NCBI GenBank assembly: GCA_905178155.1
Contig: CAJINV010000009.1
Coordinates: forward strand, 2,829,373 to 2,893,372
DNA length: 64,000 nt
Origin: Amoebophrya sp. A120
Lineage: Eukaryota > Protista > Dinoflagellata
Direction: 5' to 3'
Made by a program: the position numbers and the translations under genes. The notes under the pieces were generated by a model. It was not told where the DNA came from and did not search any database. It was given only the letters and a program-made list of their open reading frames with translations. Below, one piece after another: positions 398-63,948 of this stretch (positions are counted from its first letter, which is position 1; every line of letters starts with the position of its first letter).

Positions 398-3300
398 TCA
401 GGGCGAAATAAAACGTCTCCAATGTTCGCCAGTTGTGTTAGAACCTTTTTCCTGCGCCACAGATTTCTGTGTGGTACCCTTATACGATACGGTGTCGAGC
501 CTGCGGCCTCCGCCACCGTCTACCCAGTTGTGCCAGGACTGCATCGATATGTCGCGCGTGGCGACATATTCCATACTAGTGTCGCCGTACTTGTTCGTCG
601 TTTTGACATACTTTACGCCCAGTTCTCGCTCCAGTAAATCGGCCATCTGTCTCCCCTTTGCCGTCGATCGGTCAAACATCGTGTGCCCCTCGGCGTCGAT
701 CTTTAGACTTCCAAAATGGCCGTAAGGTTCCCAGTCCTCCTCATACTCAAAGTCATCAGGAACCTGTGTCCCCGGAGGAAAGGGGATGGGGTACCCCACG
801 TAGTACGGGTTAACACGGCTCGGCGCTTTAAGGACGATGTCCTTCTCGGTCCACGGCACTTTTGTCGTTGTCCCAGGGATCTTCTTCGGTGTATCGTAAG
901 CGGGGACAGTCTCGTCCCAAGGCGCCTCTTTCCATTCCCCAGTCGGAACGGACTCAACGGTCTCCTCCACCTCCACCTCCTCTTCTGGTCTCCTAATGGC
1001 CAGCGCTATTTCGGTGCCGTCCGACTTTGTCAAGGTGCCATCGCGCATGTCGTAGTAGCGCCGCACCTCGTCCGCGTCTGCTACATCTTCATGCGGAACA
1101 TCAAGCGGTTGGTGTGTAACGGGATCCAGGATGTCTCCAGTCCGAACGAGTTTCCTCTTGCGCCAATCCTGGCCGACACCTTCTCCAAAATTATGAAAAA
1201 GCTTCATAAGCACGTGCTCGTACTTTTTGTGCAGTACTTTTTTTTGTCCCTCTGTTGCTTCAGTTGCAGGATCTTCCTCCTCTCCATACAATAAGATTCC
1301 AACAGCCCAATTCACGTCATCTCGGTCGAGGAAATTATCCCAAGCGTTCATCATATGGCGTTCTCAGCCGTTACATTCTCAACTGTCACAGGGTTCGTTT
1401 GTCATGCAAAATGACCATAAGCCTTCCGCAACACGATCAAGGTGCTTCGCATGACAAATTTTCGAAGGGCTCAACACCACCCGAATGTACCTAAATTTGT
1501 AACGCAAAGCGCGCAGTCTTCCCGAGTTCACTTTTGCTGTTCTTGCATGATAAATTCATGTTGTAACAGTTGAGAATGTAACATTTGAGAATCCCGTACA
1601 TCACCTCGCCTAATTTCGAACCGGCGTCGCCGAGACGTTTTTTGCCGAAAATATTCAAGTGATGAAACACGTCTCCTTTCACTTCCTGATTGATGATCCA
1701 TTCCTGCTCCTTCGGGGAAAGCTTCTCCCAGTCCTTCGGCTTTTCCAATAGGTTGTCCCATTTGTGGTCCCACTCGATCCGCTGGCCCTCGTCCCCAGAT
1801 ATTGCAAGCTCCTTGTCTCCGCCAGTGACTTCGTACCCCTTTGTATCAGGAAACAACTCATGGAGCTGATCAAGCACCCAGTCCTTATTGGTAAATGTTG
1901 GAACTTTTTTCACTTTTGACAAAGGTGCCTCGAGAACCTCCCCAACGTTGTCGAGGAGGTCTATCCCGTGGCTCTCGAGGAGATCTACCCCGTGGCGGTA
2001 CAAGAGGCCCACTGGCGACATCGACATGGCTGCCCGAACTTTTCTGATGTCGTTTACAACGGTCACGGCTCCGACCGCTCCATTGTGGACCGCATCCAGG
2101 CCGCCAGCCACTTGGTCTATGGAACCATCAGATCCGAAATTGACAAAGTTGGTTTGACTTGCAATGCGCCATGACATCGACTATTATTCCAGTTGGGCTC
2201 GTCGCAGTCTCTGATCGGCGCATGAAAAATTTTAATTTGCCTCGCCACCTCTGAAGCAAATAATCTGTCATACTGTTGAGGGCAAGAGGGCTAGCCCCCT
2301 CTGTCACGCTAGACAGCAGCCGACAAAAAAACTCTTGACAGGTGACCCTTACCAACCCTACAATCTGCCTCCCTTGCGCCCTCTGCCATGCAAGAGTCAC
2401 TCGTTGCACCGCTGTCGCGCTTTCTGTATGACAACCAACGTTATGGCGCGGGGGCAGAGTGCCTGCGCTGCGACCTTGCGGGGAGGAAGGGCCGCACGTG
2501 GTGGCTTTTCTTCCCCATGATGCGGGAGGGTTTTCTTTGAGTCAGCGCACCCCGGTCGCCCTGTTACAGAGAAAACGGCGTGGGCCTGGCCGGCGGCTGC
2601 GGAGCCGGCGCCCCCCTGGAAAAGTGCGCGCGCCCGGGCGCCACCAATGACTTGCGACGCCCTCCCTGCAAAAGCAAGCCCGAGGCGCTGGCCGCAGGGT
2701 GGCTGGCAGTCGCGGGCGCCAACATGGGTCCGGCGGGCGCTTGGCAATCCCACGACGCCACCTGGGCCCTTTTCTGCGCCCCCGGGCGAAGCGCCCCCCC
2801 ATAGAAAAAACCCGCCCAAGACCACGGGCACGGCCTTCGTGGGGGCTGCTCTGTCTCGCGAACGCGGGTGGCCCTGTTTCTGCACCCAAAGGGCTACCCA
2901 CGATCGACCAAGCAAGCGCGCGGCCTTCGTCCGTGGGGGCTGCTCCCCCGGGTCCGAGCGGGTCGGCTTCTGCGCCCCGCGGCGGGCTTCCTGGGCGGAC
3001 TGCGTACGCGGCCTTCCTGGGGGCTGCTCTACCGAGCCTGCGCGCGCCTGCTTCTATCTGCGCGCCTGGACGGCGCGCCCCCACCCGAAAAGGCTAGCCC
3101 AGGCCAAGGGTGTGGCTATCTTGGTGGGCTTCTCTCCCTAACCCGCGCGGGCTCGTTTCTGCGCCTCGGGGCGGGGCGTCCCTCCGGTCGAACTCGAACG
3201 GAGGGACTACCTGCGGGCGGCGGGACAAGATTGGCCGCGGCTTTCGCGTGCCTGGTTCGCTGCGCGGCCCTTGGCGGCGCGCACCCCCCCGGGCGGGAGG

Positions 3301-4439
3301 GCGCGTCGCGGCCGGGGCTCGCTCCGGCTACCTGCCCGATTTGTGCGGGTGGCCCGCGCGCCCGACGAAGGAATAGACCGGCGGCAAAGAGGGGCGTACT
3401 TTGTTGCCTGCTGGGCTTATGGACGTGGGCCCGTGTGAGCAGCTAGGAGCTACGGCGAGGCACATCTGGAAGCACTCCCCAGCGCACACCCAAAAATAGG
3501 GCCCGGAACAGGGGGCCAGGCGTATCGGCTTCAAGCGCGGTTGCTCGGTTGGCGGCCGCGCTTTGGCTTTCGGCCGGGCGCCAGTTGGTTCGTAAGAGTG
3601 GGGAGCGGGCTATGTTTTGAGGTACGCGCAGAGGGGTCGCTGGCTTAGCCAGTGGAAGGCACCCCAGAACAGGGGTCGAAACATAACCCAAAGCATAGCC
3701 CGAAAGAACACGCCCCAGATGACTCTCGAAAAATGGCGCCCGGGGTCGCGTGTCACTTTTCCGGAGCCGGTTCTGGCATATGTTTTGGGGCGTTCAGGAC
3801 GTTTTTGCCGAGTTGCGTCGTGTTTGACATCCCGGAACAGGGGTAGGAACATACCCCGGAGCACCCTGAAAGTGATCACTTTTCTTTTTGGGCAGTCGCT
3901 GCAGTTTAAATAGTAATGGCAATGTCAAATTTGTTGTCGACTTCAGGCCTGACGCTTCCATATGATCCACTGCTTGTTTTATTCAGTGGAACGACGTCCC
4001 CACCCCAGACTTCCCATGCAAAGCTGCATGCAGCCTGATACGTTTCTCATGCGCAGCCCCAAGAGGAAGCGCTTTCCAGTCCTATCTGGAAACTTGTCGT
4101 CCTAGACTCAGGACGAGGTGGCCGGTTTGTAATGCAGCTGCAAGACCGAAGCAGGATTGTAGTTGTACTGCGACCCCAGCGCTGTCATGCGCAACAGCCA
4201 AAACTTGTTGGTTATGGTTTGTGTAGCAAAATAAACACCCCTGGTGGGATGGGGACGTTTTTACACAGGATATGTTGATGCAGAAACCCCTGAAAATCTC
4301 CGCCAGGTATCGCTTTCGCCAATTCATGCGCAAACCCTTCCCCAAGGTGGTCCCCCAAATGGTCCATACCCGGCGGCAAGCCAGGCAAGCCAGGCAAGAA
4401 TGAAAAAGGGTGCGAAGTGGAGTAACAACTGAAATACAA
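398..4439 (-). CDS. Multi-exon hypothetical protein (gene 1), split by elements 3980-4272, 2118-3962 and 1354-1598; 5' end unresolved
   Basis: Removing each element plus one DR joins ORFs 4212-4439, 1491-2177 and 398-1354 in frame: ...GGDFQGFLHQ|QAVDQ|VAGGLDAVHNG...SKLGEVM|NAWDNFLDRDD... Confidence 0.8.
1354..1598. mobile_element. Introner-like TIR element, family B (245 bp)
   Basis: TATGGCGTTCTCAGCCGTTACATTCTCAACTG...CAGTTGAGAATGTAACATTTGAGAATCCCGTA; DR CATCA at 1349-1353 and 1599-1603; removal restores frame. Confidence 0.9.
2118..3962. mobile_element. Introner-like TIR element, family C, expanded to 1845 bp by a nested GC-rich repeat
   Basis: TATGGAACCATCAGATCCGAAATTGACAAAG...GTCGACTTCAGGCCTGACGCTTCCATA; DR TGGTC/TGATC; removal restores frame. 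Confidence 0.8.
2437..3912. repeat. GC-rich non-coding repeat X, copy 1 (nested in family C element)
   Basis: Colinear with 5131-6313 from the ATGGCGC..CAGAGT..GCGCTGCGACCTTGCGG start to the GCTGCAGTTT(A/C)AATA end; boundaries approximate. Confidence 0.75.
3980..4272. mobile_element. Introner-like TIR element, family H (293 bp)
   Basis: TATTCAGTGGAACGACGTCCCCACCCCAG...GGGGACGTTTTTACACAGGATA; DR TGTTT/TGTTG; removal restores frame. Confidence 0.8.
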
Positions 4440-4880: not shown

Positions 4881-6364
4881 TATCAACTGCAAATATGCTG
4901 CCTGGGTCTGGAAGAGGGCAAGTTAGTTTGTCACTTTCCAATTCCATGATCCATGGTGTCTGTAATGTAATATGCCATAGCATCACACATTTTTTGAGCG
5001 CCTGTCGATGCCGCGCTCGCGCATTCTGCTGCATGACAAATGCCCCCTCCGCGTAGCCAAATTTGACTCCTCTTGCTGCTCGTGGTCGTGCAATACTGAT
5101 TTTTTCAGCATCCAAACGCAGCATCAAAAACAAGGTCATGGCGCTGGGACAGAGTCCTCGCGCTGCGACCTTGCGGCGAAGAAGGGCCACCCGCGGTGGC
5201 TTTTCTTGCCCATGGCGCGGCAGGTTTTTTTTTGCGCCAGAACGGGGTGGCCCTGGCGCCCGTGGAGCCGGCGCCCCCCCTGGAAAAGCGCGCCCTTTTC
5301 TGGCCCCCTCGGCGGGGCGCCCCCCCCCCAAGGACTACCCACGACCAACCGAGGGCGCGGCCTTCCTCGGGGCTGTTCTCCCGAACCAAGGCGCGCGGGC
5401 CTGTTTCTGCGCCCCAGGGCGGGGCGCCCCCCCAAAAGGAATGCCCACGACCAACCGAGGGCGCGGACTTCCTGGAGGCTGTTCTCCCGAACCAGGGCAC
5501 GCGGACCTGCTTCTGCGACCCTGGACGGGGTGCCCCCCCCCCCCCAAAGGACTACCCACGACAGAACAACCGGGGGCGCGGCCTTCCTGGAGCCTGTTCA
5601 TTCTCCCGAACCGGGGCGCGCGGCCCTGTTTCTGCGCCCCTTGGCCGGGCGCCCCCCCCAAAGGACTACCCACGACGGACCAACCGAGGGCGCGGCCTTC
5701 CTGGGGCCTGTTCTCCCGAACCAGGGCGCGCGGACCTGTTTCTGCGCCCCTGGGCGGGGCGCCCCCCCCCAAAGGACTACCCACGAACAAGTGGGGGCGC
5801 GGCCTCCCTGGGGGCTGTTCTCGCCGCCGCGCCCCCCCCAATGAATAGGCAATCAAGAAGAACCTTCGGCCCCCGGGGTCAGGCCTGGCTCTTGAAAAGT
5901 GGCGTCCGGGGTCGGGTGTTCCTTTTCCGAAGTCAGGTGGGGGGCACGTTTAGAGCTGTGCAGGAGGTTTTTGCCGATTCAGGTCGTAGGAAATACCCCA
6001 GAGCACACCCCGAAACATACCCCAGAACACACCCCGAAACATACCCCAGAACACACCCCGAAACATACCCCAGACCATACCCCGGGAGCCCCTTTCCGAC
6101 AGTCAGGCTCGGTGTCGGGCCCGACTCTCGAAAAGTAATGCCCGGGGTCGGGCGTCACTTTTCCGGAGTCGGGTGTGGGGTACGTTTTGGGAGGTGCATG
6201 AGGAAATGGCCGACTTAGGTCGTGTTTGATACCCCGGAACAGGGGTCGGAACATACCTCGGAACACACCCCAAATGAACATTTTTTGGCAGTGAGTTGCT
6301 GCAGTTTCAATACTTAGTAATTCTTTGGCGCTTCCAGACCCAGACAACTTGTTGGCAATGCATA
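4881..6364. mobile_element. Family A TIR element interrupted by nested repeat X
   Basis: TATCAACTGCAAATATG..CTGGGTCTGGAA start and TTCCAGACCCAGAC..GCAATGCATA end; interior 4980-5130 matches the reverse complement of element 26712-26978; DR degraded (CATTA/GACTA). Confidence 0.7.
5131..6313. repeat. GC-rich repeat X, copy 2, with internal ~120-bp tandem units and a 22-bp tandem
   Basis: Units GCGCCCCCCC-AAAGGACTACCCACGA-...-GTTCTCCCGAACC recur across ~5300-5840; ACACCCCGAAACATACCCCAGA about 3.5 times at ~5990-6085. Confidence 0.8.
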
Positions 6365-6366
6365 GA

Positions 6367-6934
6367 CTACGATACTAATACAAACATTCTCTTCTGCAAG
6401 AACGCCAACGCCCCTGGCGGATTTTCTCCCCTCGACGCCCGCCGCTCGTCCTGCGCACCAGCCCACTTATGGCGTATTCTCAAACTCTACTACACTGGTC
6501 CCTGTTCTTCTTCTTACGTAGGTTTGATGTGATTTATCACTCTCATGAAGTAGATGCAAAAGCACCAAACGCAAATGGTGAAGGATTGCGCTTTCCGCAT
6601 GTTGAGCAATTAGCTTGGGAGGACGGAAATGGTTTGCTAATATGCTGCTGAGCGCATTGTAAACTTGTCGTCATGCTGAGTAGCTCGATCATGCAGATTG
6701 CGACACAGGTTGGCTCTGCACCACGACAAATCAACAAGAAATTGAGTCTACAGCTACATCAAGTCGCAGACGCAGTCGTCGCAACAACAATCGCAATATA
6801 GAATAACGCTTGAGAACGCCATACCACTCCTCCTTTTCGTCAGGCGGGCCCGGAGTCGAAGCCCCGCTTGGCGTGGTCGCGATCGGGGTCGTAGTACTGT
6901 GAGGAAAAATATAAACGCCCCCGCTCCCCCGCAT
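6367..6934 (-). CDS. Two coding exons ending in TAG (possible 3' end of an upstream gene)
   Basis: Removing 6468-6823 plus DR gives ...GPPDEKEEW|AGAQDERRASRGENPPGALAFLQKRMFVLVS*. Confidence 0.5.
6468..6823. mobile_element. Introner-like TIR element, family B (356 bp)
   Basis: TATGGCGTATTCTCAA...TTGAGAACGCCATA; perfect DR CCACT. Confidence 0.85.
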
Positions 6935-8287
6935 TGAAACAAGCGAAATTCGTGTAGACTATTTGCGCTGCTGATTTGTGGCCACAGTTTGCATGAGAAT
7001 GCGTCTGTCTTGCCAGAGGGGAACTAAGCCAGAGATTTCGCCGCGCTATCCGTGAAAGTGCTGCCGTGCCTACAGGCGCCCAGGCCTCTGCTATGCTACG
7101 CGCCTACATCGAAACACGGCCTGCGCAGGCACCGGGTCTGCGTCTGCCTGTAGTCCCTCAACGGCAACAAAAATCTAGAAGTGTGATGCACATTTACACA
7201 AATCAAGCTCCTTTATTTGCATAGGGGGAGGGTGTCGGTGTGTTTTTTACTTTGATAGGCTGCCCTCGTTTTCGCGAGCTGGAAACTTAGATGAGAGCCG
7301 CCTGCAGCGGACTATCCTCTGTAAAAGCGTTGCCACCCCAAACTTGTCGCGCAGATTTGCATCTACAGGAACATGATTCATCGTAGTGCGTGTCTCATGT
7401 GTGAAGAACGACGTTTCTGGCCACTGTTTTAGCATTCGTAAAAACGTTGCGACCAGGAGCAGCAGAGAGATGTCTCTGTGAAGATGTGGGCGCATGGTTG
7501 GTAATGGTAAACTTGACACTCACTACACTATTACAGAGAGAAACTTGCAATGCGCGGCTCCCAAAACTTCTTGACTTGTTTTGGAAAAAGCCCATCTTGA
7601 CTCTGGAGGGGCGGGGACGTCTTTACACAGGCTACTGACGCAGCGACCGCGTCGGTAATGGCGTCCTCGAGCGCTTTATCAAGTGCAAATAATTACTCAT
7701 CCTCTGGGCCTGCAAAAATACAACTAGTGCAAATTTCTGCTGCTAGCTCTGAATGGACTTGAGGACAGAGAAATCTGCATTGCATGAGCACCAAAATCAT
7801 CTAGCCCCCAGCTGCAGGGCTTATGGTCGCCCGGGTAGGCGGTTTCCCTTCTCATGCTGGAAAGGCAGTGCGGCTGCGGACAACGACAAGTCCTAGCGCT
7901 AGCCCTCTCAACGAAAAATAAACTCGTAAAAACGTTATTGCCACGGCCCGCATTGCAGATACAGAGACAGACCTCATGGGCCGTGCCAACGCCGCATGAC
8001 AAACCTGCTCCGCAACACAGGTGCTCCAGACCCAGGCATTTTCGTTGCAGTTGATACTCCAACTCGTCTCTTTCCGTTAGGCGCACTATGCCGAAAAAAC
8101 CTGTGTTAATTGCAAAACCTACAGCACTTGTTCTTGTCCATGTGCCACGCCAGCCACGAAGTCTTCTTTGCATACGAATGCGTCAACTTAATCTTTCACG
8201 CACTGCTACTGGCACTACTAGCTGTGCTACATCATGAGATGTAGTTTTCTCTGTTGATCACGCAGGCCAAACTTTTTGTCATGCTCA

Positions 8288-10328
8288 TTATGCTGTCACT
8301 CCACGAAAAACATCTACACAACCAACACAGTAGTTTTCACTCTCTGCTTGGATATTCAGTTGGCCTTGTGCATTCCATGCGCCCTCGACTAGATCCAGTG
8401 TCGCGCTGTCCGCGCTGATTTGGAAGCTGAACAGAAGCTGCGCGAAGTAGACGTGTGCTGGTTGCAAGGATGGAGATCTTCGTCTTGTCATCTCGGCGCT
8501 TCGCAATTTTTCCAGAAGGAAGAGGAAAGACGTCGGCTTGTTTTCGTCCCCATTGGCCATTGACGGGAGCCAGCTGCGCGGCGTGGTAACATTCAAGACG
8601 GTTAAACTCGTGCTCTTGAACATTGCGAGACTCAAAGTAGATGCCCCGCGCCCGACTAGGAAATTCAGAAGACCCAGCGTAACTGCCGTCTGAAACACCT
8701 CCGCACCCGTCTCCGAGTCATTTATTCCCGGCGCACTTGTCCTCGCACTGTAGTTGCCGTCAATTGTTACGCTCAGTTTGAACTTTCTCGCTGTGGTTCG
8801 GGTCGCGGGCGTGATAGCCGGGGGCGGCAAAAACGGCGCGGCCCTTCTGGCCATCACCCCCCGAAGGGACTGCATGCCAGTCACTGCCGCGCTAATCGCG
8901 TGCAGCAGTGCTGCGGCTTCTGCAGCTGTCAGTGCTTGCGGCGGCAAGGCGGCCTCCATGCTGGCCAGGGTCTCGCTGTCGCCCCAAATTCCAAAAGAAA
9001 AGATCGCTTCGAGGTCGTTTGCGGAGTCGGTGGCGTTCGGAGCGGGCGTCAACGATTGGGCAGAAAACTCCGCTGACCCTGTCACGTTCTTCAAGCCGCC
9101 GCGCTCGAGGAAGTGCAACGTTCCTTCCTGCACCGCAGCAAGCAGACTCGGGTCCTTTAGCACGGCCGCTCTGTCTGGAATCAACGTCACATTGACGGAA
9201 AAGACCAATAAAAACTGTCGCAAAACTATCCAAGAAAAAAAGGTTGTAGTAGGTGTAACTTTCTATTATTCTTGGAGGATTACTAGCATCACAAATATCT
9301 CTCGCATGACACCAAAAGCTTGTCATGCGCAGATAGTACGTGAATAAAACAAGCTTGTTGAATGGACCCTACTACGCAGGCGCAGCATGACAGGCGCAAT
9401 CAAATTGCATCATGTTGCGCATCACAAATTTACACTAGCAATTTTTTTCTTGGATAAAAACCAGCCCCGTCGTGGTAGTGGTCGTGGTGGTGCTGCTGCT
9501 GCTCGGGGGAGCAGGGTAGACGGCCCGTCCTGCTGCTGCAGCCACGACGGGGACGGACACTGCCACCTCACGGAGCCCCGCTGCAGCAACTGCTGCGGAG
9601 ACTGCCGCCTCCAAGGCACGCAGCTGCGTGGCGTTCAAACCTTGCATCGGGTCCCAGACACTATCCACATCCTGCAAAACGTCATCCGGCACTTGTAGGG
9701 CAAACTTGAAAACTACTTCAAAGGCGCCGCCGTTACCGCTCCCCAACTCCGAAACGGCAATGAATTCCTCGCTGACTAGGTTGTTTGTTGAGCTAGTATG
9801 ATTCTGCAGTCGCGAAACACCCCCGTTCTTCCCGCCGACTGCCTCGGAGATGAATCCAAGACTGCCGAGCCCCACGGCCTCCCGCAGCACCTGGCTGGCC
9901 AGCAGGTCCGTGCGATTGATCGTCTGGCGCTGCAACTCCTCCACTGGCGCGAACACGAGAGCGAATTCGCGCTCGACCAACTTCATCACGGAAGCGGGGG
10001 CGGGGGCCGTCGCTTGCGCGGCCGTGCCGGTCGGCCCTGGCCCTCGTCCACTAGTAGGGCCTCGCGTGGTCCACTCGTCCTCTTTATCAAATTCGGCCCC
10101 GCTTTCTCTCGACGTCTCTTTGTGGTCCTCGCCGGCGCTCTTGCTTGCGGCTTCGCTCCAGCCATTTGCCCCCATGCCCGGACGGTGTCCAATCGTCTTG
10201 ACGCCGTAAACACCAGACGGAACGACGAAAGGCATCACGACTGGGTGAAGCGGCAGCCGGGCAGCTGCTCCCAGTAGAGATACCAAGGCTAGAAAGAGCA
10301 TCACGCTGACATCAACTGCAGCCATCAT
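8288..10328 (-). CDS. Predicted secreted/surface protein with three ~110-aa repeated domains and S/T/P-rich linkers; 3' end unresolved
   Basis: Hydrophobic N-terminus MMAAVDVSVMLFLALVSLLGAAA; ORFs 9435-10388 and 8288-9223 join in frame (TTTGLV|LRQFLLVF) after removing 9227-9456 plus DR. Confidence 0.8.
9227..9456. mobile_element. Introner-like TIR element, family D (230 bp)
   Basis: TATCCAAGAAAAAAA...TTTTTTTCTTGGATA; perfect DR AAAAC; removal restores frame. Confidence 0.9.
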
Positions 10329-13300
10329 GTCTGCTCCGCGATCCAAATCCAGAACGAGAGAGGCTTGGAAATGGAGACGACGAGTCAAAATTCTGCCCCG
10401 CGCGCTCCGTTAAACGCCACTCGTTTCTTTGTCATGTCGCGAAGACGCGACTTCTATGCACTGCAATATGCCCTCTGGGTCTGAATAATGGCACTCGAAT
10501 TAAATTTGCTATGCCTATGCTGAGTCTTGTGCTCCGGTCTTTTGTAAGGACATGAACACGCCGCAATTTTTTCAGGTCCGTTCTATCTCTATTTGTCATA
10601 TTCTGCATGACAAAGAGAGGCAGTGGCAGTCTTCCAGCACTACAAACACGAAATTGCGCGCGCGCTTCTCAAGGTGGGTGGAAAACGAAAAGCCAACCGG
10701 ATACTCTTATGTGGTCCTACTAGAGTGAGCAGCCCGGAACCCGTATACATGCATCAAAGAGCGCGCTATCCTTCAAATTTTTTTTGCCTCACGGATTCAG
10801 CCTGTCTCACTTTCGCACCCAGGCTCAGGCGCATTTGCAATGCGTAACGTCATCGGATCGTCCGCGTCATCCGAAGACGTCGGAGAGCAGGATAGTACAG
10901 CGGGGGAAAATCCCCCTCGCCATACTCAAAAGAGGAGTTCGCGTACGCGATTATTTGTGTAGACTTTTTTATTTTTTAAAATACACATAGGCACCAAACT
11001 GCAACACAGACAACTTCAGATCGGAAATGGCATTGATCCAGGCAAGTCGTCATCATCTCATCGCGGTTCCAAATCGTGTTCTGTAGGTTGCGTATTTGTG
11101 TAGTAGACTTATATTGCTAGAAAGCGAAGAGCCACACTTGTCGTCTCGTTTGCAGCGAAATTGTTATGGAATTCCTGGGAGTGCAGTCGCTTACTGCCAT
11201 ACTAAAAAAGACGCGAGGCTCTCCTACCGTATTGAAGACAAAAACGCTGCTAGTCCTAGTGCTGTAGGACTATCAGAAACCACCCAAATAGCTTTTGGCC
11301 CGATAGTCAAATTCTTTCTCCTTTTTCCAAAAAGGAAAACCCAGCGTACTCTAGATCTAATTCCTTGGAATGCTGCTGAAAACCCTCGGTATGTGTCGGC
11401 TACTTGTTCGATTTGCTCCTGCTAAGATTTGCTCCAGCTGCAGATGCGGATGCCCTCTGAAGACATTTTCTGCGGGATTTCCAGCTGGAGATGCCTCTTG
11501 AAGCCATTTCCAGCCGGAGGCCCCGACAAAGAGCATGTCCAGCTGGCGGCCCTCAATCGTGAAGACGAACAGCATGCGAACCGCAAAAGGGGGACGGAGG
11601 CTATAGGTAAAGCATCGAAAAGAGCGCGGCGCCATAGCGTCGAAAAGCATGTTGCTGCCTGCGCATGCGAACCCCGATTGCGGGGTCTCCCTGCCGAATG
11701 AAAAAATGTACTAGGCGTCCCTCAGTGCGCGCGCGAGCCCCAACGGGGGAGGGAGACGGTTGAAAAGGGGCTCCTCCCCCACGATAAAAAAGCAAAAGTA
11801 CGGCGCTAGCGAAAAAATCGCTCGCGAGTGCGCTGGCGAATGATCACAACAGGGGTGGGCGGGGTGGGGGGGATCTCTCCCCCTGGATTAAGAGAGCAGG
11901 CACTGCGCCACCGCGCAAATCGCTCGCGAAAGCGGCTGCGAACCCCAACAGGGGGGGCTGCGGGGGGTCTCCCGCCCCTGGATGCACGGAAGCACCACAC
12001 CCCCGAGAAAAATCGTGTGCAGGTTTACAACTTACAGCATTCGCGCGTTGCGCGGGGCTTCTACTCTTTTCTACGCGTGCGCCCGCGCATCCCAGCAGGG
12101 GGGGGCTGGGGGGAATCTCTGCCCAATCTCGCCCCTCTGCTGGGGTAGCGTTTGTTCACGCGGCCACCTTAAGATGGACCCTAGACTGAACGCAGTTTCT
12201 TTCCGAGATAGGGTAAGCGTGAGCTGCAGTACTACCATACGATGATAGCAGGCCGTGGTCGAGGGAACAACGTCAACGAACTACACGAAAAGGAAAAACA
12301 GATAACTATAGCAGACGGAAGGTACGCCGTGTGTCATTTTCTTTATCTTTTACTCCAAACTTATTATTCATCATCTCAACAACATGTCACTTTTAAACCA
12401 AGGAAGAAGCTCGTCTACTAATACAACTGCTCAAACCTCAAAAATACTCAACAGCAGGAGCGGCGTTTCTGTTCGATAACCGAATAGAAGTAGGCACCAC
12501 GCAGGGGGTTGTGGCATTGTGCGGCATTATGATCATACATCCTACGCTACTCGGGGTCTATCTTCTGTGTGGACGACTTCCTGCACTGGTGACCCAGCCA
12601 CAGAAACAAGTCGCAGGACTTTCCATCATGATCGATTCGAACGCGAACAGGAACACAACGTAAGGCATGAAGAAAGGCCACCATTCGCTGGTTTGGAGAT
12701 CCTGCGCTAGTTTTGGCTTGAGGAGTAGAAAGTAGGAAGACTGCCAACGACTCATCGTTCCCGTCGTGCTGCTGAGCCATAACAAACAGGTGAAACTGAA
12801 GCAAGAGTAAGCTAGTAGCGAACTACAAGCTGTACTGCTGTGCGCCGTGGCCGTGCTGCTGTGCGCCGTCATGACAATACCGCACTGCTTTGAAATTGAC
12901 TGCAAAAGCATTTACTTACTTTCATAACAAGGCACTACCTGGAAAAGCTTCGACATAAGGTGTAGAACCTTCACGACCCGAAACGAAAACATCAAAAGAT
13001 GAACGCAATTTCAATTTAAAAAATAAAAAATCGAAAAAAATACCATAGAAAGCTGAGCGTCCTCGTTTCGTACTCAGCCAACCCCTGCTGGCAGCGCCTT
13101 GTGCGCCTCGAGAAGTAGTAGTAGTAGTACTGTTTCTAATGTCTTGAAATAGAAATCATAACAGTTGTTACAGTAGTAATCTAATATTGCTGCCGTGCTG
13201 TTCACGGCGGCGAAGCTCTCTGAAAGAAGTTTCGCGCAGGCTAAAGCGTAGTATTTATAGCAAAAAAAAGTGAAAAAAAAACATGCGAAAAAACAACTTA

Positions 13301-46389: not shown

Positions 46390-46621
46390 TATGCAAGAAA
46401 AAAACTGTGTATAGTGTAAGTCTGAGATGCAAAAAATGCAAAACAGAGTTATACTTACACTTGTCATGCTGGACCTGCGTCAGAGGCTCGTCATCTTTTC
46501 GTACGTGTTTTCCCGTACTAGCCGCGCACATGACAGGCTCTCTCTGATGTCATGCAGAGCAAACTCGTGATGCTATTTTTCTTCCAAGAAAATTACACTA
46601 ACACAGTTTTTTCCTTGGATA
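46390..46621. mobile_element. Introner-like element, family D (232 bp), inverted relative to the 56946 and 63349 copies
   Basis: TATGCAAGAAAAAAACTGTGT...ACACAGTTTTTTCCTTGGATA; perfect DR GCTTT; flanking minus-strand ORFs join in frame (DSPEKA|TACLLC). Confidence 0.9.
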
Positions 46622-48448: not shown

Positions 48449-49105
48449 CTATGGTCTCGGGGCCGTGGCCGTGCGCTGGCTGATGGCAAACGAGTCATCT
48501 TTCGAAGCGAGAAGCATGGTGCCCGGAAGGTATGACGCATTGTCCTTGTTGTTCCGTGCCCTCGCATTCCTCTCTTGAATGTATTGCCCCAGCGGCGGCG
48601 GTAGGCCCGGGGGGCCACGCCTCAAATTTAGTTGGCAGTACTGGTACATTGCGTCCCAAGTTGGAGTGCCTTTGCGCTCACCCTTCAGCACACTGTGGGG
48701 CATCCTTTGCAACGTCTTCAGCGCTTGCTCACACTGACGGTCGTCGGCTTTTGACATTTGGGGGGTGGCCAGCGCGGCCTCTTGCAACTCCTCTCCTGGA
48801 GGCATGCTATCCCAGAGAAAAAAGCTGGACATGCATATTTGTAATGCAACAATAAATACACAGAAAAACTTGTCATGGGTGGCCCCATAGCATGCTGCTT
48901 CGTATATGCCATGCAGATTCTTTTTTTTTGTGTGTTTATTTTTGCATTACAAATATGCCCTGCCAGCTTTTTTCTGTGTGATACATGCCTCCCCCTATCC
49001 AGATGAAAACCTCCCTCCTCAGGCTAAAAGGGAAGCCTGTGCCGGCGCGGGATTTTTCGTGTACGCCAGTCAGCTCTGTCCTGCAGCTGTAAGGGACTGC
49101 AGGCA
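48449..49105 (-). CDS. 3' exons of a hypothetical protein
   Basis: Removing 48808-48983 plus DR gives ...FSLRREVFIWIGGGM|PPGEELQEAALATPQ... through to the stop at 48449. Confidence 0.6.
48808..48983. mobile_element. Introner-like element, family F (176 bp, ~55-bp imperfect TIR)
   Basis: TATCCCAGAGAAAAAAGCTGG..CATATTTGTAATGCAA...TTGCATTACAAATATG..CCAGCTTTTTTCTGTGTGATA; perfect DR CATGC. Confidence 0.9.
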
Positions 49106-56766: not shown

Positions 56767-57510
56767 TCTGCTAACCTGCTTCGGTGCTCCTCCACAAACT
56801 TGTTGAGCGCGGGGTGATTTGGAGGTGGCCCCTTGGGTTGCGGTGTTCCTCCACCTTCACCAGCCGCAGTCGCTGCCCCGGCAGAGCTGCAAGCAAGTCC
56901 CGCTACCGCAGAAGAGGAGATCCTCACTAGCCGCCGCCACGATGGTATCCAGGAAAAAAAGTGTGTAAGTGTAACTTTCTTTGAGAAACAGCATCACAAA
57001 TTTGCTCTACATGACAGAGAAGACATGTCATGCGTGGCTTGTAGGGGAAAACACAGTTGAAAAGAGGACTTCGTGGCTGTCTGGCATGACAGGAGTAACT
57101 CTGTTGCATGTTCTGCAACACAAATTTACATTTACACAGTTTTTTTCTTGCATAGATGGAATAGGAATTGTTGTCGTACGCCGCATGTTCTGTATGGAAG
57201 CGTCAGGATCGAAATCGTCAGAGTTGAAATAATTTGTCATGCATAAAATGCAGACCACAAAATGCCTGTCTTGCAGAGTAGGCAAGTGAGGCAGATTGTA
57301 AGCCTGTTGACGGGTAGAAAGTGAGCCGCTACAGTAGCATTACAAAAGGCGTCTTCCTTACCAAACACCATGACAAACTGGATTTAGGTTCTACCAAAAT
57401 TTGTCACGCGCCACTTAGAAACTGGGTTACACCTGGCATCCAATTTAGGCATGGCAAATTATTTCACCTTTGTCGATTTCAAACCTGACACATCCATATT
57501 CTGCATCTTG
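56767..57510 (-). CDS. Three exons of a hypothetical protein (possible N-terminus)
   Basis: After removing 57193-57498 and 56946-57154: KMQN|MRRTTTIPIPS|WRRLVRISSSAVAGLACSS...NKFVEEHRSRLAD. Confidence 0.6.
56946..57154. mobile_element. Introner-like element, family D (209 bp)
   Basis: TATCCAGGAAAAAAAGTGTGT...ACACAGTTTTTTTCTTGCATA; perfect DR GATGG; colinear with 63349-63562. Confidence 0.9.
57193..57498. mobile_element. Introner-like element, family C (306 bp)
   Basis: TATGGAAGCGTCAGGATCGAAATCG...CGATTTCAAACCTGACACATCCATA; perfect DR TTCTG. Confidence 0.9.
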
Positions 57511-58983: not shown

Positions 58984-59472
58984 CACATATACAACAAGCT
59001 TACTTACTTCATCTTCCTCTACAAAAATGCATAGCGAGGGACATACTTTCCGTTCCAGCATACACAGTTCCAACCGCTGGCCTGAAAAAGAACCGCTAAG
59101 GGACGATGATAAAAGCTAAAGCACAGTAGGCTTATTAATTTACGCGCACAGCTGCCAAGCAATTCCATAAAGTTGCACCGCCCCCCGGACAATTTTCCGC
59201 AGGACCGTACGTAGTTGTCGCTGCATTTCGTCTCAGTTCGTGTTTCCGCCCCCAAAGCGGAGTCACGAGATGAGTCAGCTCGCTCCTCCGGGGGTGTGCC
59301 TTCCGCTCGTCCTCGGAGCTGTTCCACACTTCACAGAATCGACCGCAACCGATCCCGAGGGCTGGCTTCGATCCTTCCTGGGGGGACCTGGACGCAGCTC
59401 ATCCAACTGGTATCGATTTTATGCATTGCAAATCATTTCAACTTTGTCGACTTCGATCCTGACGCGTCCATA

Positions 59473-62400
59473 GTACTGCTGGTATCTTGTTGATCCACAT
59501 TGATTTATAGGTTGTGATACCTTCGAATTCGCACGTCTTGAGTTGCATGTCCGGCACGTCTTGAGATGAATTTGTACTGTCCTTGCATGGAGGCCGACAA
59601 AAGCGCAGCTCCTCTTGAGGTCATGCAACAACGGCATTTGATGCATCTGTCTTGCGCGCCATGTCGCATATTTCTTAAGAGCAGCAGCGAAGCCTTCTAG
59701 AAGCTTGTTGTCAAGATCCTTCGCTGCGCTCGCAATCAAAAATGTTCCAGTTCCTCACATCAATCGATCCTGGCATCACAAAACTCCGGACCCAAATCGA
59801 AATTTTTTGCATTTGATACTTATCTACGCATTTATCTTGCCGATGTAGCAACACAGATTTTTTGTCTGCAGCATGGAAACCTGCCAGCTCCAGCATACGA
59901 AGATTGATCTGTCATAAGTGATGTTGAACACAAGCACGGAGGACCAAATACGCAGTACTTACCGGGCAGCGTCTGAGCAAAAGTTCGCGCATAACTGCAA
60001 ACATCTGAGCTCCTTGCCGCTGTCAAGCTTGTTGTAGTGCAGTGGGTTGTGTATCTTCAAGGAAAACTACAGGAAAAAACATTTTCTGTAGTAGTACGAT
60101 CTGACAGCAACATCACAAACTGAGCACTAGCACATCATACAGTTTGAATTTTCCAGGAGCGATGTCGCTCAAATAAACAAGTTAGACATGACGAAGACGA
60201 CCATGACCACGGCAGACACCAGTTAAAAATGTCATGCTTCTTCTAGAATGAGAATTGTGAAATACACCAACACAAATGATATTGAAAATAGCAGGCCGAC
60301 TGGGCTGCGCTGCTATGTTATGTTATAACCTGCGCAGGTGTTAGAATCTCAATTTACACAGTTTTGTCTTGCATGAAGAGCATGAAAAACATGCGCACAG
60401 CCTTGCACTTTTCGCAATACAAACAAACGTTTGAGATTGTAACACCTGAGCGGGCCATATATGTCTACTGTGCATCATCTCCGTGATCTTCTTCTTCTGC
60501 CTCCACCTCTATGGAAGTGTCAGAATCGAAATCGATAAAGTACTAGCGGAGAAAAAGATTTGCAATGCATAAAATGCAACCATAAAATGCAATGCACAAA
60601 GTAAAAGTGCCTCTCTTGCGGGGATGGCAAATAGTCCGGCTGATTGTCCGCTAGTTTGGCTTTGGGATCCTCTGATATAATAGAGCTGCTAAAGTACTAG
60701 CAGGGCCATTCTGTGCCCAAACCAACAGCGCGACAGATTGGATTCCGATGCAGCTGCCAAAATCTATCATGCGCCATTTGAAAACTGGAATCCAACAACC
60801 GGCATCCACTTATTTTTGCATTGCAAGTTTTCCTATCTTTGTCGATTTCGATCCTGACGAGTCCATAACGGCCGTGTCTGCCGCGCTACTATGGGACTCT
60901 CAAGAAGCGTTAGTACTTTGTTTGCTGTTACATGAAATTGTGCTGCAAGAAGAGCGAAAGTGAAATAGAATTAGAAATGCAAATATATTCATAAATCCTC
61001 TCGCATTTTACAAATCCGGCACAGAAAATTTCCATGCTATTTGGACCTTCGAGAATCTGTCATGCGAAGTAGTCTGAAGATCGTGCGGAGGCTTCTAGTA
61101 CGAGATCATGGTAAAAATTCTGGAGGGTGAGAGATGATTGATAAAAGCAAACTATGTAGCCGCGTTTGAGGGTTGTCCCAACATACGGCTCCGTGCCTGG
61201 TTCATCTGGGGCTGGTTTCGGCTTGTTTTTTTCACCGTCATTTTTCGACGAATTTGAAACTCCTTTAGCAGCTTGGTCCTTGTCCCCTGCTGGGCTAGCT
61301 GCGTTTGCCGCTAGTCCTCTGCATAATGCATTGCAAATATGTCTGGGTCTGGAAAGTTGTGACCACGCATATCAGTGAATAGAAAGCACACTGTATCTGT
61401 AACGCACCGCAATAAAGCATCACAGAATTTCAATTTTCAGTCGCTTCGTGTCGCGTATTCCGCATGGGACTAAAACAGCGTCTTTGCATGGTAAACAACC
61501 CGAGCTCCTGCTGGCTACGCGATACAGAGCTCGGTGCCATTCACGACCAGCATGCCAACTCTCGCATGCTTCCAGACCCAGACATATTTTCAATCCATAT
61601 GCTCCACTCTTCGTTGATTTTGTGTTCCAAATATTTGCCCAACTATGAAAGTGCACGACTCCCCCTCCCCCTCAGTTGTCAAGCAAAAGCCCAAATCCAG
61701 TCGCTGCCTTGCGGCACCGTTTGCATGACAAATTTCGGGGGCCCAAACGGTAAACAGTAGCAGTACCACAGTTGGTGCATAAAAAATTTCATTTGTCACG
61801 CACGGGCTCCAAGGTCGTCAGTGGCGTTTGTGTTGCTCCTGTTCATGCCATGCAACAAAAGAGGGCAGGGGGGGGTTGTGCACTCTGATACCAACACTGC
61901 GAGAGCGAGAAAAAGACCGGGGTGCAGGAAGAATAGCACTCGGCCTCCCGCCTGAGGCAGGAGAGAACCAAGGGAGGGAAACAGGTTGACCAGCACGTCC
62001 TTCATTTGAAACGCCGGCTCGTATTCCAGCTCGAAGGTAAGGAAAAAGCGGACGGCAAAGCATTGCAAAGAAAAGGGCCCCCTTCCCAAATTGATGAATC
62101 AACACGCATCTTCCTTCCGAAATTCTGCGAGGCGGATTTGTGGCCATAAATCTGCATTGCAAGAAGACAAATCCAGAGAGCAGTCCGCCGGCGTGTCAAT
62201 ATACAACTGCAGACGAAGATTTGTAACGCTGTGAGGCCAACAGGCACAGGGCAGACCTCTGCCATAGCCGTGCTAAGTGCCTCCACAAAAAGATCCCTGC
62301 CTAAGGCTTAGGTGGATCTGTGCGCAGGAGTCCTGCTCTCATCTCTACTGCAAGACAAACTCGATTTTCTCTTCCGCACGTATATGATCCCGCATCATAG

Positions 62401-63948
62401 ATTTTGATTTCCATTCTGATATAATGGGGAGGGGGAACCTTTATTCTATATTGGGATAAAAAGACGGCAATCCCCACGTTGCCCAACAGGTAGGGTCGGC
62501 TTTCGAAAATTTCTTGTTGCAGCATGGTTGATAGCGTATGCTTTGCAAAAGTATGGCATCGTACTCGTATACCTAAACCTATACATTTACATGCATTACA
62601 AATTTCATGAGAATTAAAATCTGTAATGCGGATTTACCTTGAGAAGTACATTTGTAATGCATGATTGCAATTAGAATTACTACCCTACGTACGAGTACGA
62701 TACTTTTGCATTGCATATAGGGCGGTCTCGGCCAACAAGTCAAAACCGGCCACCAGCGGGTATCAAATGCAAAAATGTCTGGGTCTGGAAACTTGTGATG
62801 CAAGAAAGGGAGTAGTGAACTCACTCTAATGCGCTGCCAAGCATGACAAGTTTTTTCCGTGGTTCTGAGTTGCGTACCCCGCATGAGAAACTGAGTTTTT
62901 GCATGACAGGGAGGAGGAGCTCCTCGCGGCCATGCAACACAGAGTTCAGAGTCACGCCAGACAAGCATGACAAATCTCGCAATCTCCCAGACCCAGACAT
63001 TTTTACATTTGATAGCGGGTCTGCGGTCACAACCTGGAAGAGGGAAGAGACGGTGCAGCAAATCAAAACCTGGTTGTAGTAGCCGTAGTATTTCTTCACT
63101 TGCTCGAAGCGGGTCAACGGCTTCTGGCCCGGCTTCTTGCTCTTCTTCTTCGTCTTCTTCGCGCCGTCACTTCGCCTCTTACGTGGGGACGATGAGGTCG
63201 AGGAGGACCTCGATCTTCCTGTATTTTTCGCGGCTTTTGTCGTTGATCCCGGCGGAGGTGATAAGTCCCCGCCGGCGTGGAGGTTTTCAGGTGGATCACC
63301 ACTACCACCATCCCCGGGTCCACCTCCGCGATCAGCGCTGGAAAACAGTATCCAAGAAAAAAACTGTGTTAGTGTAACTTTCTTTGGCTGACAGCATCAC
63401 AAATTTGCTCTACATGACACAGAAAACCTGTCATGCGGGGTTTGTAAGGGAAAACACGCATGAAATGAGGACTGCATGGCTGTCTGGCATGACAGGCGTA
63501 ACATAACTCTGTTGCATGTTCTGCATCACAGATTTACACCTACACAGTTTTTTTCTAGCATAAACAGCATACTGCCTCCATTGCTGTACTTTAACCGCAC
63601 CCAAGGTAGGGCCAACGCAAGACCGCCCGCCACGGTTTTAATAGTACCCTTCGCAGACGTCGCACCGGAGGACCCGCTGAGCTTCACGTGCAAGTCGGTG
63701 GCGCGGATTTTTATCTTTCTGGGCCGCCCGCCCGGTACTGCAGCCTCGATCGCACATCGCGCTCCTTCGGGAGTTGTTTGAGTTTTGGATCGCACCTCAG
63801 GCGGGGCGATGAGATCTCTAGTGGGACGCCGGGCCGACCACGACCACGACCACCTCGTCTCTCTCTCGCGTGGTAGTACGTCGTCGAAAAATAGCAGGCG
63901 CCTCTCCTGCTTTGACGGCAGCGCTACTGCAGTACTTCTGTAGTCCAC
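59473..63948 (-). CDS. Multi-exon hypothetical protein; 62450-63948 rebuilt in frame, lower exons only partly assigned
   Basis: ...YSNGGSMLF|SSADRGGGPGDGG...KPLTRFEQVKKYYGYYNQVLICCTVSSLFQVVTADP|LVAGFDLLAETAL|STMLQQEIFESRPYLLGNVG across three elements; further exon-like ORF pieces at ~61155-61320 and ~59473-59740. Confidence 0.7.
60510..60867. mobile_element. Family C TIR element (358 bp)
   Basis: TATGGAAGTGTCAGAATCGAAATCGATAAAG...CTTTGTCGATTTCGATCCTGACGAGTCCATA; DR ACCTC/ACGGC. Confidence 0.75.
61324..61599. mobile_element. Family A TIR element
   Basis: ATGCATTGCAAATATGTCTGGGTCTGGAA...TTCCAGACCCAGACATATTTTCAATCCATA; exact left end unclear. Confidence 0.75.
62537..62717. mobile_element. Introner-like element, family E (181 bp)
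   Basis: TATGCTTTGCAAAAGTAT..ATCGTACTCGTA...TACGAGTACGATACTTTTGCATTGCATA; DR TAGCG/TAGGG; frame restored. Confidence 0.8.
62761..63014. mobile_element. Introner-like element, family A (254 bp), inverted relative to 32629-32882
   Basis: TATCAAATGCAAAAATGTCTGGGTCTGG...CCAGACCCAGACATTTTTACATTTGATA; perfect DR GCGGG; frame restored. Confidence 0.92.
63349..63562. mobile_element. Introner-like element, family D (214 bp)
   Basis: TATCCAAGAAAAAAACTGTGT...ACACAGTTTTTTTCTAGCATA; perfect DR AACAG; frame restored. Confidence 0.92.

What the first reader, a model, noticed from the sequence alone, without database searches (positions are those of the whole stretch)
1349..63567. Genes fragmented by at least 8 families of TIR elements that behave as precise, non-GT-AG introns
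Seen: over 30 MITE-like elements with family-specific TIRs and sequence-variable 5-bp flanking direct repeats (CATCA, CCACT, AAAAC, GAGTT, TCTCC, GTGGA, GAGAG, TGGCT, GCTTT, CATGC, GATGG, TTCTG, GCGGG, AACAG). At about 18 junctions, deleting the element plus one DR fuses neighbouring minus-strand ORFs in frame, including five in a row at 26321-28305 and three in a row at 62537-63562. At the six junctions tested (1354, 9227, 32629, 36386, 62761, 63349), sliding the cut across the DR never gives GT-AG; only 32629 allows GA-AG. Known: inverted- and direct-repeat non-canonical introners are reported in Amoebophrya, and to my knowledge their removal mechanism is unresolved. Inference: a removal system that reads the hairpin plus DR rather than U1/U2 splice sites.
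Basis: partly seen in the sequence, partly recalled or inferred. Interest (0 to 1): 0.92.

Follow-up and report, generated by a model that had tools for sequence, protein, structure and literature searches.

The report
Amoebophrya introners cut at fixed register
These are the already published transposon-derived, non-GT-AG introns of the marine parasite Amoebophrya A120; the added detail is that, at the junctions where the cut can be placed, it falls 1 base before and 4 bases after the element's inverted ends whatever the flanking repeat reads, which would make any new insertion harmless and is likely the work of a relaxed spliceosome.

Summary
I curated 50 TAT...ATA inverted-repeat elements; 17 have an exact 5-nt direct repeat (DR). 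The window is Amoebophrya sp. A120: it encodes an annotated A120 protein at 100% identity. The elements match the introners of Farhat et al. 2021 (PMC7789003), so the class is already known. DNA-like contigs keep elements that RNA-like contigs lack. Added detail: the cut has one register, 1 nt before the 5' TAT and 4 nt after the 3' ATA. It fits 16 of 17 junctions of the annotated protein, three allowing nothing else, and one RNA junction that cannot slide. The DR is not read: only 6 of 26 supported introns keep it perfect. Because 1+4 equals the 5-nt target duplication (126 of 162 outside copies), fresh insertions would leave the mRNA unchanged. A relaxed U1-less spliceosome guided by end pairing is my best guess (about 0.5); a Euglena-like nuclease-ligase is the rival (about 0.35). 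Neither was testable here. The scan noted similar introns before in three other genomes (unchecked notes).

The parts
398..4320 (-). host gene 1 (one open frame of about 500 codons after three cuts; 5' end not resolved; no Pfam family)
1354..1598 (-). introner, family D, DR CATCA/CATCA
   Evidence: ORF fusion only
2118..3962 (-). long introner, family E ends, nested GC-rich repeat inside
   Evidence: ORF fusion only; nested repeat
3980..4272 (-). introner, family C
   Evidence: ORF fusion only
4881..6364 (-). long element, family A ends, nested GC-rich repeat
   Evidence: structure only
6365..10330 (-). host gene 2 (about 670 codons after six cuts, hydrophobic N-terminus; no Pfam family in its two large exons)
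6468..6823 (-). introner, family D, DR CCACT
   Evidence: ORF fusion only
6898..7257 (-). probable introner, degenerate DR (not among the 50 curated)
   Evidence: ORF fusion only
7313..7634 (-). introner, family C
   Evidence: ORF fusion only
7677..8056 (-). introner, family A
   Evidence: ORF fusion only
8087..8354 (-). introner, family B
   Evidence: ORF fusion only
9227..9456 (-). introner, family B, DR AAAAC
   Evidence: ORF fusion only
16720..35937 (-). annotated A120 gene model P0001 (1885 aa, 17 introns, none GT-AG at the fixed register)
17059..19070 (-). long introner, family C, DR 0/5; only the 1/4 register fits
   Evidence: P0001
19901..20707 (-). introner, singleton ends
   Evidence: P0001
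22961..24844 (-). long introner, singleton ends, DR 1/5
   Evidence: P0001
26321..26663 (-). introner, family A
   Evidence: P0001
26712..26978 (-). introner, family A, DR GAGTT
   Evidence: P0001
27031..27304 (-). introner, singleton ends
   Evidence: P0001
27350..27960 (-). introner, family C
   Evidence: P0001
28002..28305 (-). introner, family A
   Evidence: P0001
28407..28844 (-). introner, family A, DR 2/5; only the 1/4 register fits
   Evidence: P0001
28886..31093 (-). long introner, family A, DR 3/5; only the 1/4 register fits
   Evidence: P0001
31143..31967 (-). two adjacent elements (31143-31472 family C; about 31536-31967) that the gene model removes as one intron ending only 1 nt past the 3' ATA: the exception to the register
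32041..32556 (-). introner, family D
   Evidence: P0001
32629..32882 (-). introner, family A, DR TCTCC
   Evidence: P0001
32946..33268 (-). introner, singleton; degenerate left end placed after the fact by its A-run
   Evidence: P0001
33293..33950 (-). introner, family A
   Evidence: P0001
33989..34367 (-). introner, family E
   Evidence: P0001
34445..35819 (-). long introner, family A
   Evidence: P0001
36386..36690 (-). introner, family A, DR GTGGA
   Evidence: ORF fusion only
37343..37652 (-). element, singleton ends
   Evidence: structure only
39988..40332 (-). introner, singleton, DR GAGAG
   Evidence: ORF fusion only
40371..40770 (-). introner, family C, DR TGGCT
   Evidence: ORF fusion only
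40862..41124 (-). introner, singleton, DR TGCTC
   Evidence: ORF fusion only
41327..41721 (-). introner, singleton
   Evidence: ORF fusion only
41971..42322 (-). element, family A
   Evidence: structure only
42401..42732 (-). element, family A, 5' end reads GAT
   Evidence: structure only
45769..46047 (-). element, family C
   Evidence: one frame open after removal
46069..46310 (-). element, family D
   Evidence: one frame open after removal
46390..46621 (-). element, family B, DR GCTTT
   Evidence: one frame open after removal
48808..48983 (-). introner, singleton, DR CATGC
   Evidence: ORF fusion only
56946..57154 (-). introner, family B, DR GATGG
   Evidence: one frame open after removal
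57193..57498 (-). introner, family E, DR TTCTG
   Evidence: one frame open after removal
59416..59819 (-). intron in a 3' UTR, GT...AT; cannot slide; family A 5' arm joined to a site inside a family E end; 1/4 register
   Evidence: contigs of X3 and X4
60324..60459 (-). introner, family D, DR TATGT
   Evidence: contig piece end and exon-length sum
60465..64000 (-). host gene, 430 or more codons after eight cuts, runs off the window
60510..60867 (-). introner, family E (could also be read GT-AG one base over)
   Evidence: exon-length sum
60890..61185 (-). introner, singleton; GT-AG at the same 1/4 register
   Evidence: exon-length sum
61325..61599 (-). introner, family A
   Evidence: exon-length sum
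61644..61890 (-). introner, singleton, DR CCAAC
   Evidence: contig piece end and exon-length sum
62061..62458 (-). introner, singleton
   Evidence: contig piece end and exon-length sum
62537..62717 (-). introner, singleton
   Evidence: exon-length sum
62761..63014 (-). introner, family A, DR GCGGG; long terminal stem (z -8.3)
   Evidence: contig piece end and exon-length sum
63349..63562 (-). introner, family B, DR AACAG; 219 nt skipped
   Evidence: contigs of X3 and X4

Best explanation
These are the known introner elements of Amoebophrya A120, inverted-repeat insertions with a 5-base target duplication that DNA-like contigs keep and RNA-like contigs lack, cut 1 base before the 5' TAT and 4 bases after the 3' ATA where the cut can be placed, and likely removed by a relaxed, U1-less spliceosome that is likely positioned by pairing of the two arms. 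Steps. (1) Insertion as non-autonomous TIR DNA elements making a 5-nt duplication: anatomy shown, transposase not found. (2) Transcription in either orientation gives an intron that begins N-U-A-U and ends A-U-A-NNNN: shown for the junctions that can be placed. (3) The arms pair and set which ends are joined: inferred. (4) The cut is measured from the terminal triplets, not from the repeat; 1+4 equals the duplication, so a fresh insertion would restore the exon exactly, and later decay of the repeat does not matter: register shown, consequence inferred. (5) Chemistry by the U2/U5/U6 core, with the U of TAT standing in for the U of GU and the A seven bases before the 3' cut as a candidate branch: inferred. 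My odds: identity with the published class 0.97, fixed register as the genome-wide rule 0.85, spliceosomal chemistry 0.5.
For: Organism: 100% identity to an annotated A120 protein. Anatomy matches Farhat 2021: TAT + 7 nt + A-run, DR 3-5 nt; A at positions 11-13 in 17, 22 and 20 of 26 5' ends. RNA level: X1 contigs run through elements at depth 26-30 with no other letters, X3/X4 contigs skip 59416-59819 and 219 nt at 63349, and two hidden exon sums (235 and 109 nt) equal the prediction. Register: of 16 element cuts in P0001, offset 1 fits 16, offset 0 fits 11, 2 fits 13, 3 fits 8, 4 fits 5, 5 fits 3; three allow only 1. The RNA junction 59415|59820 cannot slide and has the same offsets. All nine top A120 non-canonical site classes in the published Table S4 have T at +2, as this register predicts (my inference). 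Duplication length: 126 of 162 outside copies have an exact 5-mer, 0 a 6-, 7- or 8-mer, 1 a 4-mer. Pairing: own-end duplex mean -28.4 against -12.7 kcal/mol for mismatched ends; at 59416 the site used ties for best pairing among 62 candidates. For the spliceosome: T at +2 in 26 of 26 and A at -7 in 26 of 26 supported introns; a GT-AG intron at the same register (60890-61185); weak AG excess at the 3' cut, 10 of 75 outside copies against 6.7% background, one-sided p 0.03; A120 keeps 83 of 89 spliceosomal proteins and U2, U4, U5, U6.
Against: One of 17 P0001 junctions (31142-31968) ends only 1 nt past the 3' ATA, and one element end (32946) was placed after the fact. The register rests on four junctions that cannot slide, three of them from a transcript-based gene model and not from reads. 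X3 and X4 are one sample and their RNA label is a guess. No preference for G at +1 (20 of 75, p 0.61) and no branch-site consensus. T at +2 and A at -7 may only reflect transposon end conservation: a 5'/3' asymmetry hinted in the window (0 against 5 of 26, p 0.05) was not seen in outside copies (3 of 29 against 1 of 40, p 0.30). A120 needs a spliceosome for its 35% canonical introns anyway. The whole 59416-59819 intron folds no better than shuffles (z -0.35), and a few supported introns pair their ends weakly.
Confidence: 0.5

Rival explanations
1. Same elements and same fixed register, but removal is by a separate endonuclease-plus-ligase system that measures from the paired UAU/AUA triplet, as proposed for euglenid non-conventional introns.
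For: No G at +1 preference and nearly all end dinucleotides occur (21 different end pairs among 26 introns). The geometry resembles the Euglena code, a paired triplet with a 3-nt 5' spacer and a 5-6-nt 3' spacer (PMC12501133 abstract): in both, the 3' spacer is 2-3 nt longer. Ends pair with their own partner. U1 snRNA was not detected in A120.
Against: A GT-AG intron lies at the same register and 15% of canonical A120 introns have the same IR/DR layout, whereas hybrids are rare in Euglena. Weak AG excess at the 3' cut. The 3-nt stagger does not match the 2-nt overhang of RNase III enzymes (recalled).
Confidence: 0.35
2. One reading: the machinery reads the hairpin together with the direct repeat, for example by recombination-like joining between the two repeat copies.
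For: Young copies have perfect 5-nt repeats (126 of 162) and removal equals element plus one repeat length.
Against: 20 of 26 supported introns have an imperfect repeat, 9 match at 2 or fewer positions and 2 at none, yet the same length and offsets fit. At 59416 the 3' site lies inside another element's end, where no duplication was ever made.
Confidence: 0.07
3. Elements are excised from DNA (as ciliate internal eliminated sequences are), or the element-free contigs come from a strain without the insertions.
For: X3 and X4 are labelled RNA only by a guess. Only 15 of the joints were shown, 856 were not.
Against: X1 pieces carry the elements at even single-copy depth; X3/X4 have almost no depth over 50072-56411, where X1 is continuous, match exons with no other letters, and also hold low-depth pieces inside the introns. 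Farhat 2021 validated such introns by RNA-seq against the genome.
Confidence: 0.04
4. Plain MITE insertions in dead genes.
For: No Pfam family above cut-off in 37 proteins and ORFs tested; three of four homologue searches found nothing. Some elements (45769-57498) showed no long RNA-like pieces in the two runs laid.
Against: Spliced contigs for the right-hand gene; P0001 rebuilt exactly through 17 cuts; long open frames after removal.
Confidence: 0.04

Closest known systems
Introner elements among the non-canonical introns of Amoebophrya sp. A120 (Farhat et al. 2021, PMC7789003; 58 A120 families in Gozashti et al. 2025, PMC12130899)
   Same: Same organism; ends start TAT + 7 nt + A-run; 5-nt direct repeats; about 250-nt typical length; non-GT-AG; no coding capacity found; many families.
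   Different: Not a different class. The paper's Fig. 3 legend calls splice positions relative to the hairpin 'variable' and border position 'unknown'; here one register (1 before, 4 after) fits all but one junction that can be placed, and the repeat is dispensable. Arms pair over about 30 nt, longer than the 8-20 nt exact repeats they defined. Some introns reach 1.4-2.2 kb, beyond their 1-kb analysis limit.
Euglenid non-conventional introns (Nomura et al. 2025, PMC12501133)
   Same: MITE-like origin proposed, paired ends, a paired triplet at fixed spacers from the cuts, no GT-AG.
   Different: Motif CDG/CHG with spacers 3 and 5-6 and a purine after the 3' cut, against TAT/ATA with spacers 1 and 4 and no flanking preference; euglenid introns leave as circles (review PMC11282704), product unknown here; unrelated lineage.
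Non-canonical introns of the tunicate Fritillaria borealis (as reviewed in PMC11282704)
   Same: MITE-derived, TIR and target duplication, removed precisely; a spliceosome adapted to them is the precedent for my best explanation.
   Different: Dominant ends AG-AC and AG-AT; here only +2 T is fixed.
Hemistasiid diplonemid non-canonical introns (PMC12621601)
   Same: Majority non-canonical introns with base-paired ends beside a conserved U2 spliceosome; mechanism open.
   Different: G/C-rich splice sites; no TAT/ATA register reported in the passages I read.

Membership tests
Amoebophrya A120 introner elements | Occurs in A120 | tested here: met
   100% identical annotated protein, GSA120T00004521001
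Amoebophrya A120 introner elements | Inverted repeats at both intron ends, starting TAT + 7 nt + at least three A | tested here: met
   TAT in 25 of 26 5' ends; A at positions 11-13 in 17, 22, 20 of 26; families D and E lack a clean A-run (definition)
Amoebophrya A120 introner elements | Direct repeats of 3-5 nt over the boundaries | tested here: met
   17 of 50 exact 5-mers in the window; 126 of 162 in loci L001-L160
Amoebophrya A120 introner elements | Removed from transcripts with non-GT-AG ends | tested here: met
   Two junctions seen directly and eight by piece ends and length sums in X3/X4 (RNA label a guess); 1 of 26 supported introns is GT-AG
Amoebophrya A120 introner elements | Repeated in the genome in sequence families | tested here: met
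   5 multi-copy families in the window; 24,181 X1 contigs lay on 19 kb, piled on element ends
MITE (non-autonomous TIR DNA transposon) | TIRs, constant-length target duplication, no transposase inside | tested here: met
   5-nt duplication only; no Pfam family in the ORFs tested from five of the seven long elements
MITE (non-autonomous TIR DNA transposon) | Mobilised by an autonomous partner with the same ends | not tested
U2-type spliceosomal intron | GT/GC at the 5' end and AG at the 3' end | tested here: not met
   GT-AG in 1 of 26 supported introns and 5 of 75 outside copies at the fixed register
U2-type spliceosomal intron | Branch-point adenosine in a U2-pairing context near the 3' end | tested here: inconclusive
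   A at -7 in 26 of 26, but it is part of the TIR and has no common context; the shared 8-mer lies 41-280 nt away and is absent in that orientation from many
U2-type spliceosomal intron | Excised as a lariat by two transesterifications | not testable with these tools
   Contigs cannot show lariats; the one raw-read run laid (X9) held only part-matching reads
Euglenid-type non-conventional intron | N3-CDG ... CHG-N5-6|R signature | tested here: not met
   Ends are N-TAT ... ATA-N4 with no purine preference after the cut (definition)
Euglenid-type non-conventional intron | Base-paired ends bring the cuts together | tested here: met
   Predicted only: own-end duplex -28.4 against -12.7 kcal/mol; z -8.3 for 62761-63014
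Euglenid-type non-conventional intron | Excised as full-length circles | not testable with these tools
   Needs RNase R-treated or non-poly(A) reads
DNA-level eliminated sequence (ciliate IES-like) | Joined form exists in genomic DNA | tested here: inconclusive
   X1 pieces keep the elements and none of the 15 joints shown is a clean excision, but 856 joints were not shown

The most novel reading that the evidence does not exclude
A120 runs a second, sequence-blind splicing machine: a ruler that binds the paired UAU/AUA end of any transposon hairpin and cuts 1 nt before and 4 nt after it, exactly undoing a 5-bp target duplication. It is not the spliceosome, arose independently of the Euglena system, and acts as an RNA-level immunity that lets TIR transposons with TAT ends fill genes at no cost.
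Probability: 0.3. Interest if true: 0.85.

Novelty: already known. Interest (0 to 1): 0.36.

Why it matters
The class is published, but how A120 removes about 65% of its introns without GT-AG or a detectable U1 is an open question. A single cut rule (N-TAT ... ATA-NNNN) would explain three things at once: why the published splice dinucleotides look random yet always have T second, why any insertion site and either orientation is tolerated, and why old copies survive after their repeats decay. It gives a rule for re-annotating the genome and a precise prediction (branch at the A seven bases before the 3' cut, or a circle of element+5 nt) that separates a relaxed spliceosome from a new machine.

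Tried and rejected
No whole genome was held, so no genome-wide junction count, U1 search or transposase search. Read-level evidence covers only 45000-64000; junctions at 1354, 9227, 32629 and 36386 were not seen in reads. Run search: no RNA holder listed on record. X9 gave 98 part-matching reads on element ends only and says nothing on splicing. Homologue searches for genes 1 and 2 found nothing, so the register test could not be repeated on a second annotated protein. Pfam: 1 of 37 sequences had a hit, below cut-off. Rfam: none. Viral contigs: no match to the family A end. The shared 8-mer TGT[CG][AG]TGC as a fixed branch site: rejected, distance to the 3' cut varies from 41 to 280 nt. 5'/3' asymmetry of end decay as proof of an RNA-level constraint: not replicated. 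The 24-34% AG in the large A120 families of Gozashti 2025 was not used as evidence, because aligners can slide cuts inside the repeat towards AG (inference). Stop-codon counts do not separate the registers. A first placing of the element at 32949 failed to rebuild P0001 and was corrected.

Full report
1. Observation. The elements are real. A de novo scan for inverted ends inside exact 5-nt repeats found them without prior assumptions; a strict version counts 19 in the window against 0-2 in 20 block-shuffled windows. Using their ends as seeds I curated 50 elements by hand, 136-2208 nt, median 322. Nearly all begin TAT and end ATA. End sequences give five multi-copy families and 13 singletons. 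All host genes I could read are on the minus strand. Removing element+5 nt, and no other length tried, opens the chains 26321-28305 and 60510-63562; the chain 39988-41721 also opens at +7 and +10 and does not discriminate. The six named junctions never give GT-AG on sliding; 32629 allows GA-AG.

2. What it is. The exon at 24774-26318 is 100% identical to an 1885-aa protein named 'unnamed protein product [Amoebophrya sp. A120]', gene model GSA120T00004521001. Farhat et al. 2021 (PMC7789003) describe for A120 introner elements whose inverted repeats start with TAT, then seven variable bases, then at least three A, with DRs of 3-5 nt, among non-canonical introns that average 240 nt. That is this anatomy. 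Gozashti et al. 2025 (PMC12130899) list 58 A120 introner families; the large ones among the 21 rows I read are classed as TIR DNA elements of unknown superfamily. The finding is therefore the published case.

3. Removal is at RNA level. On 45000-64000, contigs of run X1 pass through the elements at depth 26-30 with no other letters. Contigs of X3 and X4 (one sample; RNA by the tool's guess) skip them: 59415 joins 59820, and 63342 joins 63562, in both runs. In X4's 2908-nt record two stretches were not itemised; their lengths, 235 and 109 nt, equal what is left after removing eight more elements plus 5 nt each. I chose the ends of two of these eight (60890-61185, 62061-62458) with those lengths in mind, so the sums are a consistency check and not a blind prediction. 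X3 and X4 have almost no depth over 50072-56411, where X1 is continuous. Only 15 joints were listed and 856 were not, so a rare DNA-level joined form is not excluded. Junctions left of 45000 were not seen in reads.

4. The cut has one register. Where the DR is perfect the cut can slide; where it has decayed it cannot. P0001 maps to 35937-16720 with 17 introns. Every one can begin one base before a TAT or TAC; by a naive calculation this is about 1e-20 by chance. Cutting 16 elements 1 nt before the 5' TAT and 4 nt after the 3' ATA, with the seventeenth junction as annotated, rebuilds the protein exactly. Moving one cut at a time, offset 1 fits 16 of 16, offset 0 fits 11, offset 2 fits 13, 3 fits 8, 4 fits 5 and 5 fits 3; three junctions allow only offset 1. 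The contig junction 59415|59820 cannot slide, since the bases on both sides differ, and it has the same offsets, giving GT...AT. Against this: the junction 31142-31968 ends 1 nt past the ATA, possibly because the model skips a small exon between two elements, and the degenerate end at 32946 was placed by its A-run after a first guess failed. The protein comes from a transcript-based pipeline, so it is indirect evidence. Independent support is in the paper's own Table S4: the nine commonest A120 non-canonical classes (GT-AC, CT-AG, AT-AG, GT-CG, GT-AA, CT-AC, AT-AT, AT-AC, TT-AG) all have T second, and all nine A25 classes are TT-NN. That is what a cut one base before TAT gives (my inference).

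5. The direct repeat is not read. Among 26 supported introns DR matches are 5/5 in 6, 4/5 in 7, 3/5 in 4, 2/5 in 5, 1/5 in 2 and 0/5 in 2. The intron 59416-59819 ends at a site inside the right end of a family E element, whose similarity to other E ends runs unbroken across the cut (D12), so no duplication was made there; that site ties for the best pairing with the 5' arm among 62 TAT-like candidates. The repeat matters only at birth. A scan of metagenome contigs with the family A end returned 160 loci, all from one assembly. In them 126 of 162 elements have an exact 5-nt repeat, none a 6-, 7- or 8-nt one, and one a 4-nt one. Since 1+4 = 5, a fresh insertion would be removed without trace at any site and in either orientation.

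6. Mechanism. Arms pair best with their own partner (mean -28.4 against -12.7 kcal/mol; in 33 of 50 at most three other ends pair as well), with pairing high at positions 1-3 and 8-20, lower at 4-7, and at chance level in the flanks. A young copy folds into a long stem (z -8.3); the old 59416-59819 intron as a whole does not (z -0.35). For a spliceosome: T at +2 and A at -7 are present in 26 of 26 supported introns; one GT-AG intron sits at the same register; AG at the 3' cut is mildly enriched (10 of 75 direction-called outside copies, p 0.03; 4 of 26 in the window, p 0.09); and A120 keeps nearly all spliceosomal proteins and U2, U4, U5 and U6, with U1 not found by BLAST. Against: no preference for G at +1 (p 0.61), no branch consensus, and a 5'/3' asymmetry in end decay seen weakly in the window (p 0.05) but not in the 75 outside copies whose direction could be called, of 162 (p 0.30). 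The Euglena code is also a paired triplet with a 3' spacer 2-3 nt longer than the 5' one, and those introns leave as circles. I put the spliceosome at 0.5 and a separate nuclease-ligase at 0.35.

7. Novelty. The class, the organism and the hairpin-plus-repeat anatomy are in print. I found no paper that states a fixed register for A120 in seven searches; Farhat's Fig. 3 legend calls the position variable and unknown. [quoted passage not shown] What I read: PMC7789003 abstract, sections 10, 11, 12, 16, 25, 36, passages, supplement part 3 and legend passages; PMC12130899 passages and 21 of 58 A120 rows of supplement 8 (files 13 and 14 not searched); PMC11282704 passages and section 6; PMC12501133 abstract and discussion; PMC12005148 and PMC12621601 passages. 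Family letters A-E are my labels. The RNase III overhang is recalled.

8. Verdict. Observation confirmed; interpretation partly supported; already known. Interest 0.36, for the register rule, which turns an open question into a sharp test.

Noticed in passing
window 2118-3962 and 4881-6364: Two long introns with ends of different families carry the same GC-rich nested repeat (65-81% alike, with 106-nt tandem units at 5297-5822); probably a second mobile element inserted into introners.
   Followed up: partly
window, inside elements: The 8-mer TGT[CG][AG]TGC occurs 99 times on either strand, 75 inside the 50 elements and none in 7996 nt of large exons, across all end families; a candidate transposase or RNA-binding site.
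   Followed up: partly
window 58747-58983: The RNA-like contigs end inside this element in the 3' UTR and keep its right arm, as if the transcript ends within it.
   Followed up: no
window 31096-35937: The first 145 residues of P0001 may be read in the wrong frame; another frame gives an acidic then Arg/Ser-rich sequence, and a 58-nt segment at 31474-31531 between two elements is skipped by the model.
   Followed up: partly
window 6365-10330: A gene of about 670 codons with a hydrophobic N-terminus and a Ser/Thr run, possibly secreted; no homologue or Pfam family found.
   Followed up: partly
window 19073-21000: P0001 has a long Cys-rich stretch near its C-terminus with no Pfam match.
   Followed up: no
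L001-L160: One metagenome assembly holds hundreds of copies of the same families (A, C, E at 68-87% identity); no locus matched unique window sequence among the 30 longest hits.
   Followed up: partly
window 45710-45767, 46810-46862, 47855-47897: A short sequence of about 50 nt recurs three times outside the curated element ends (read).
   Followed up: no
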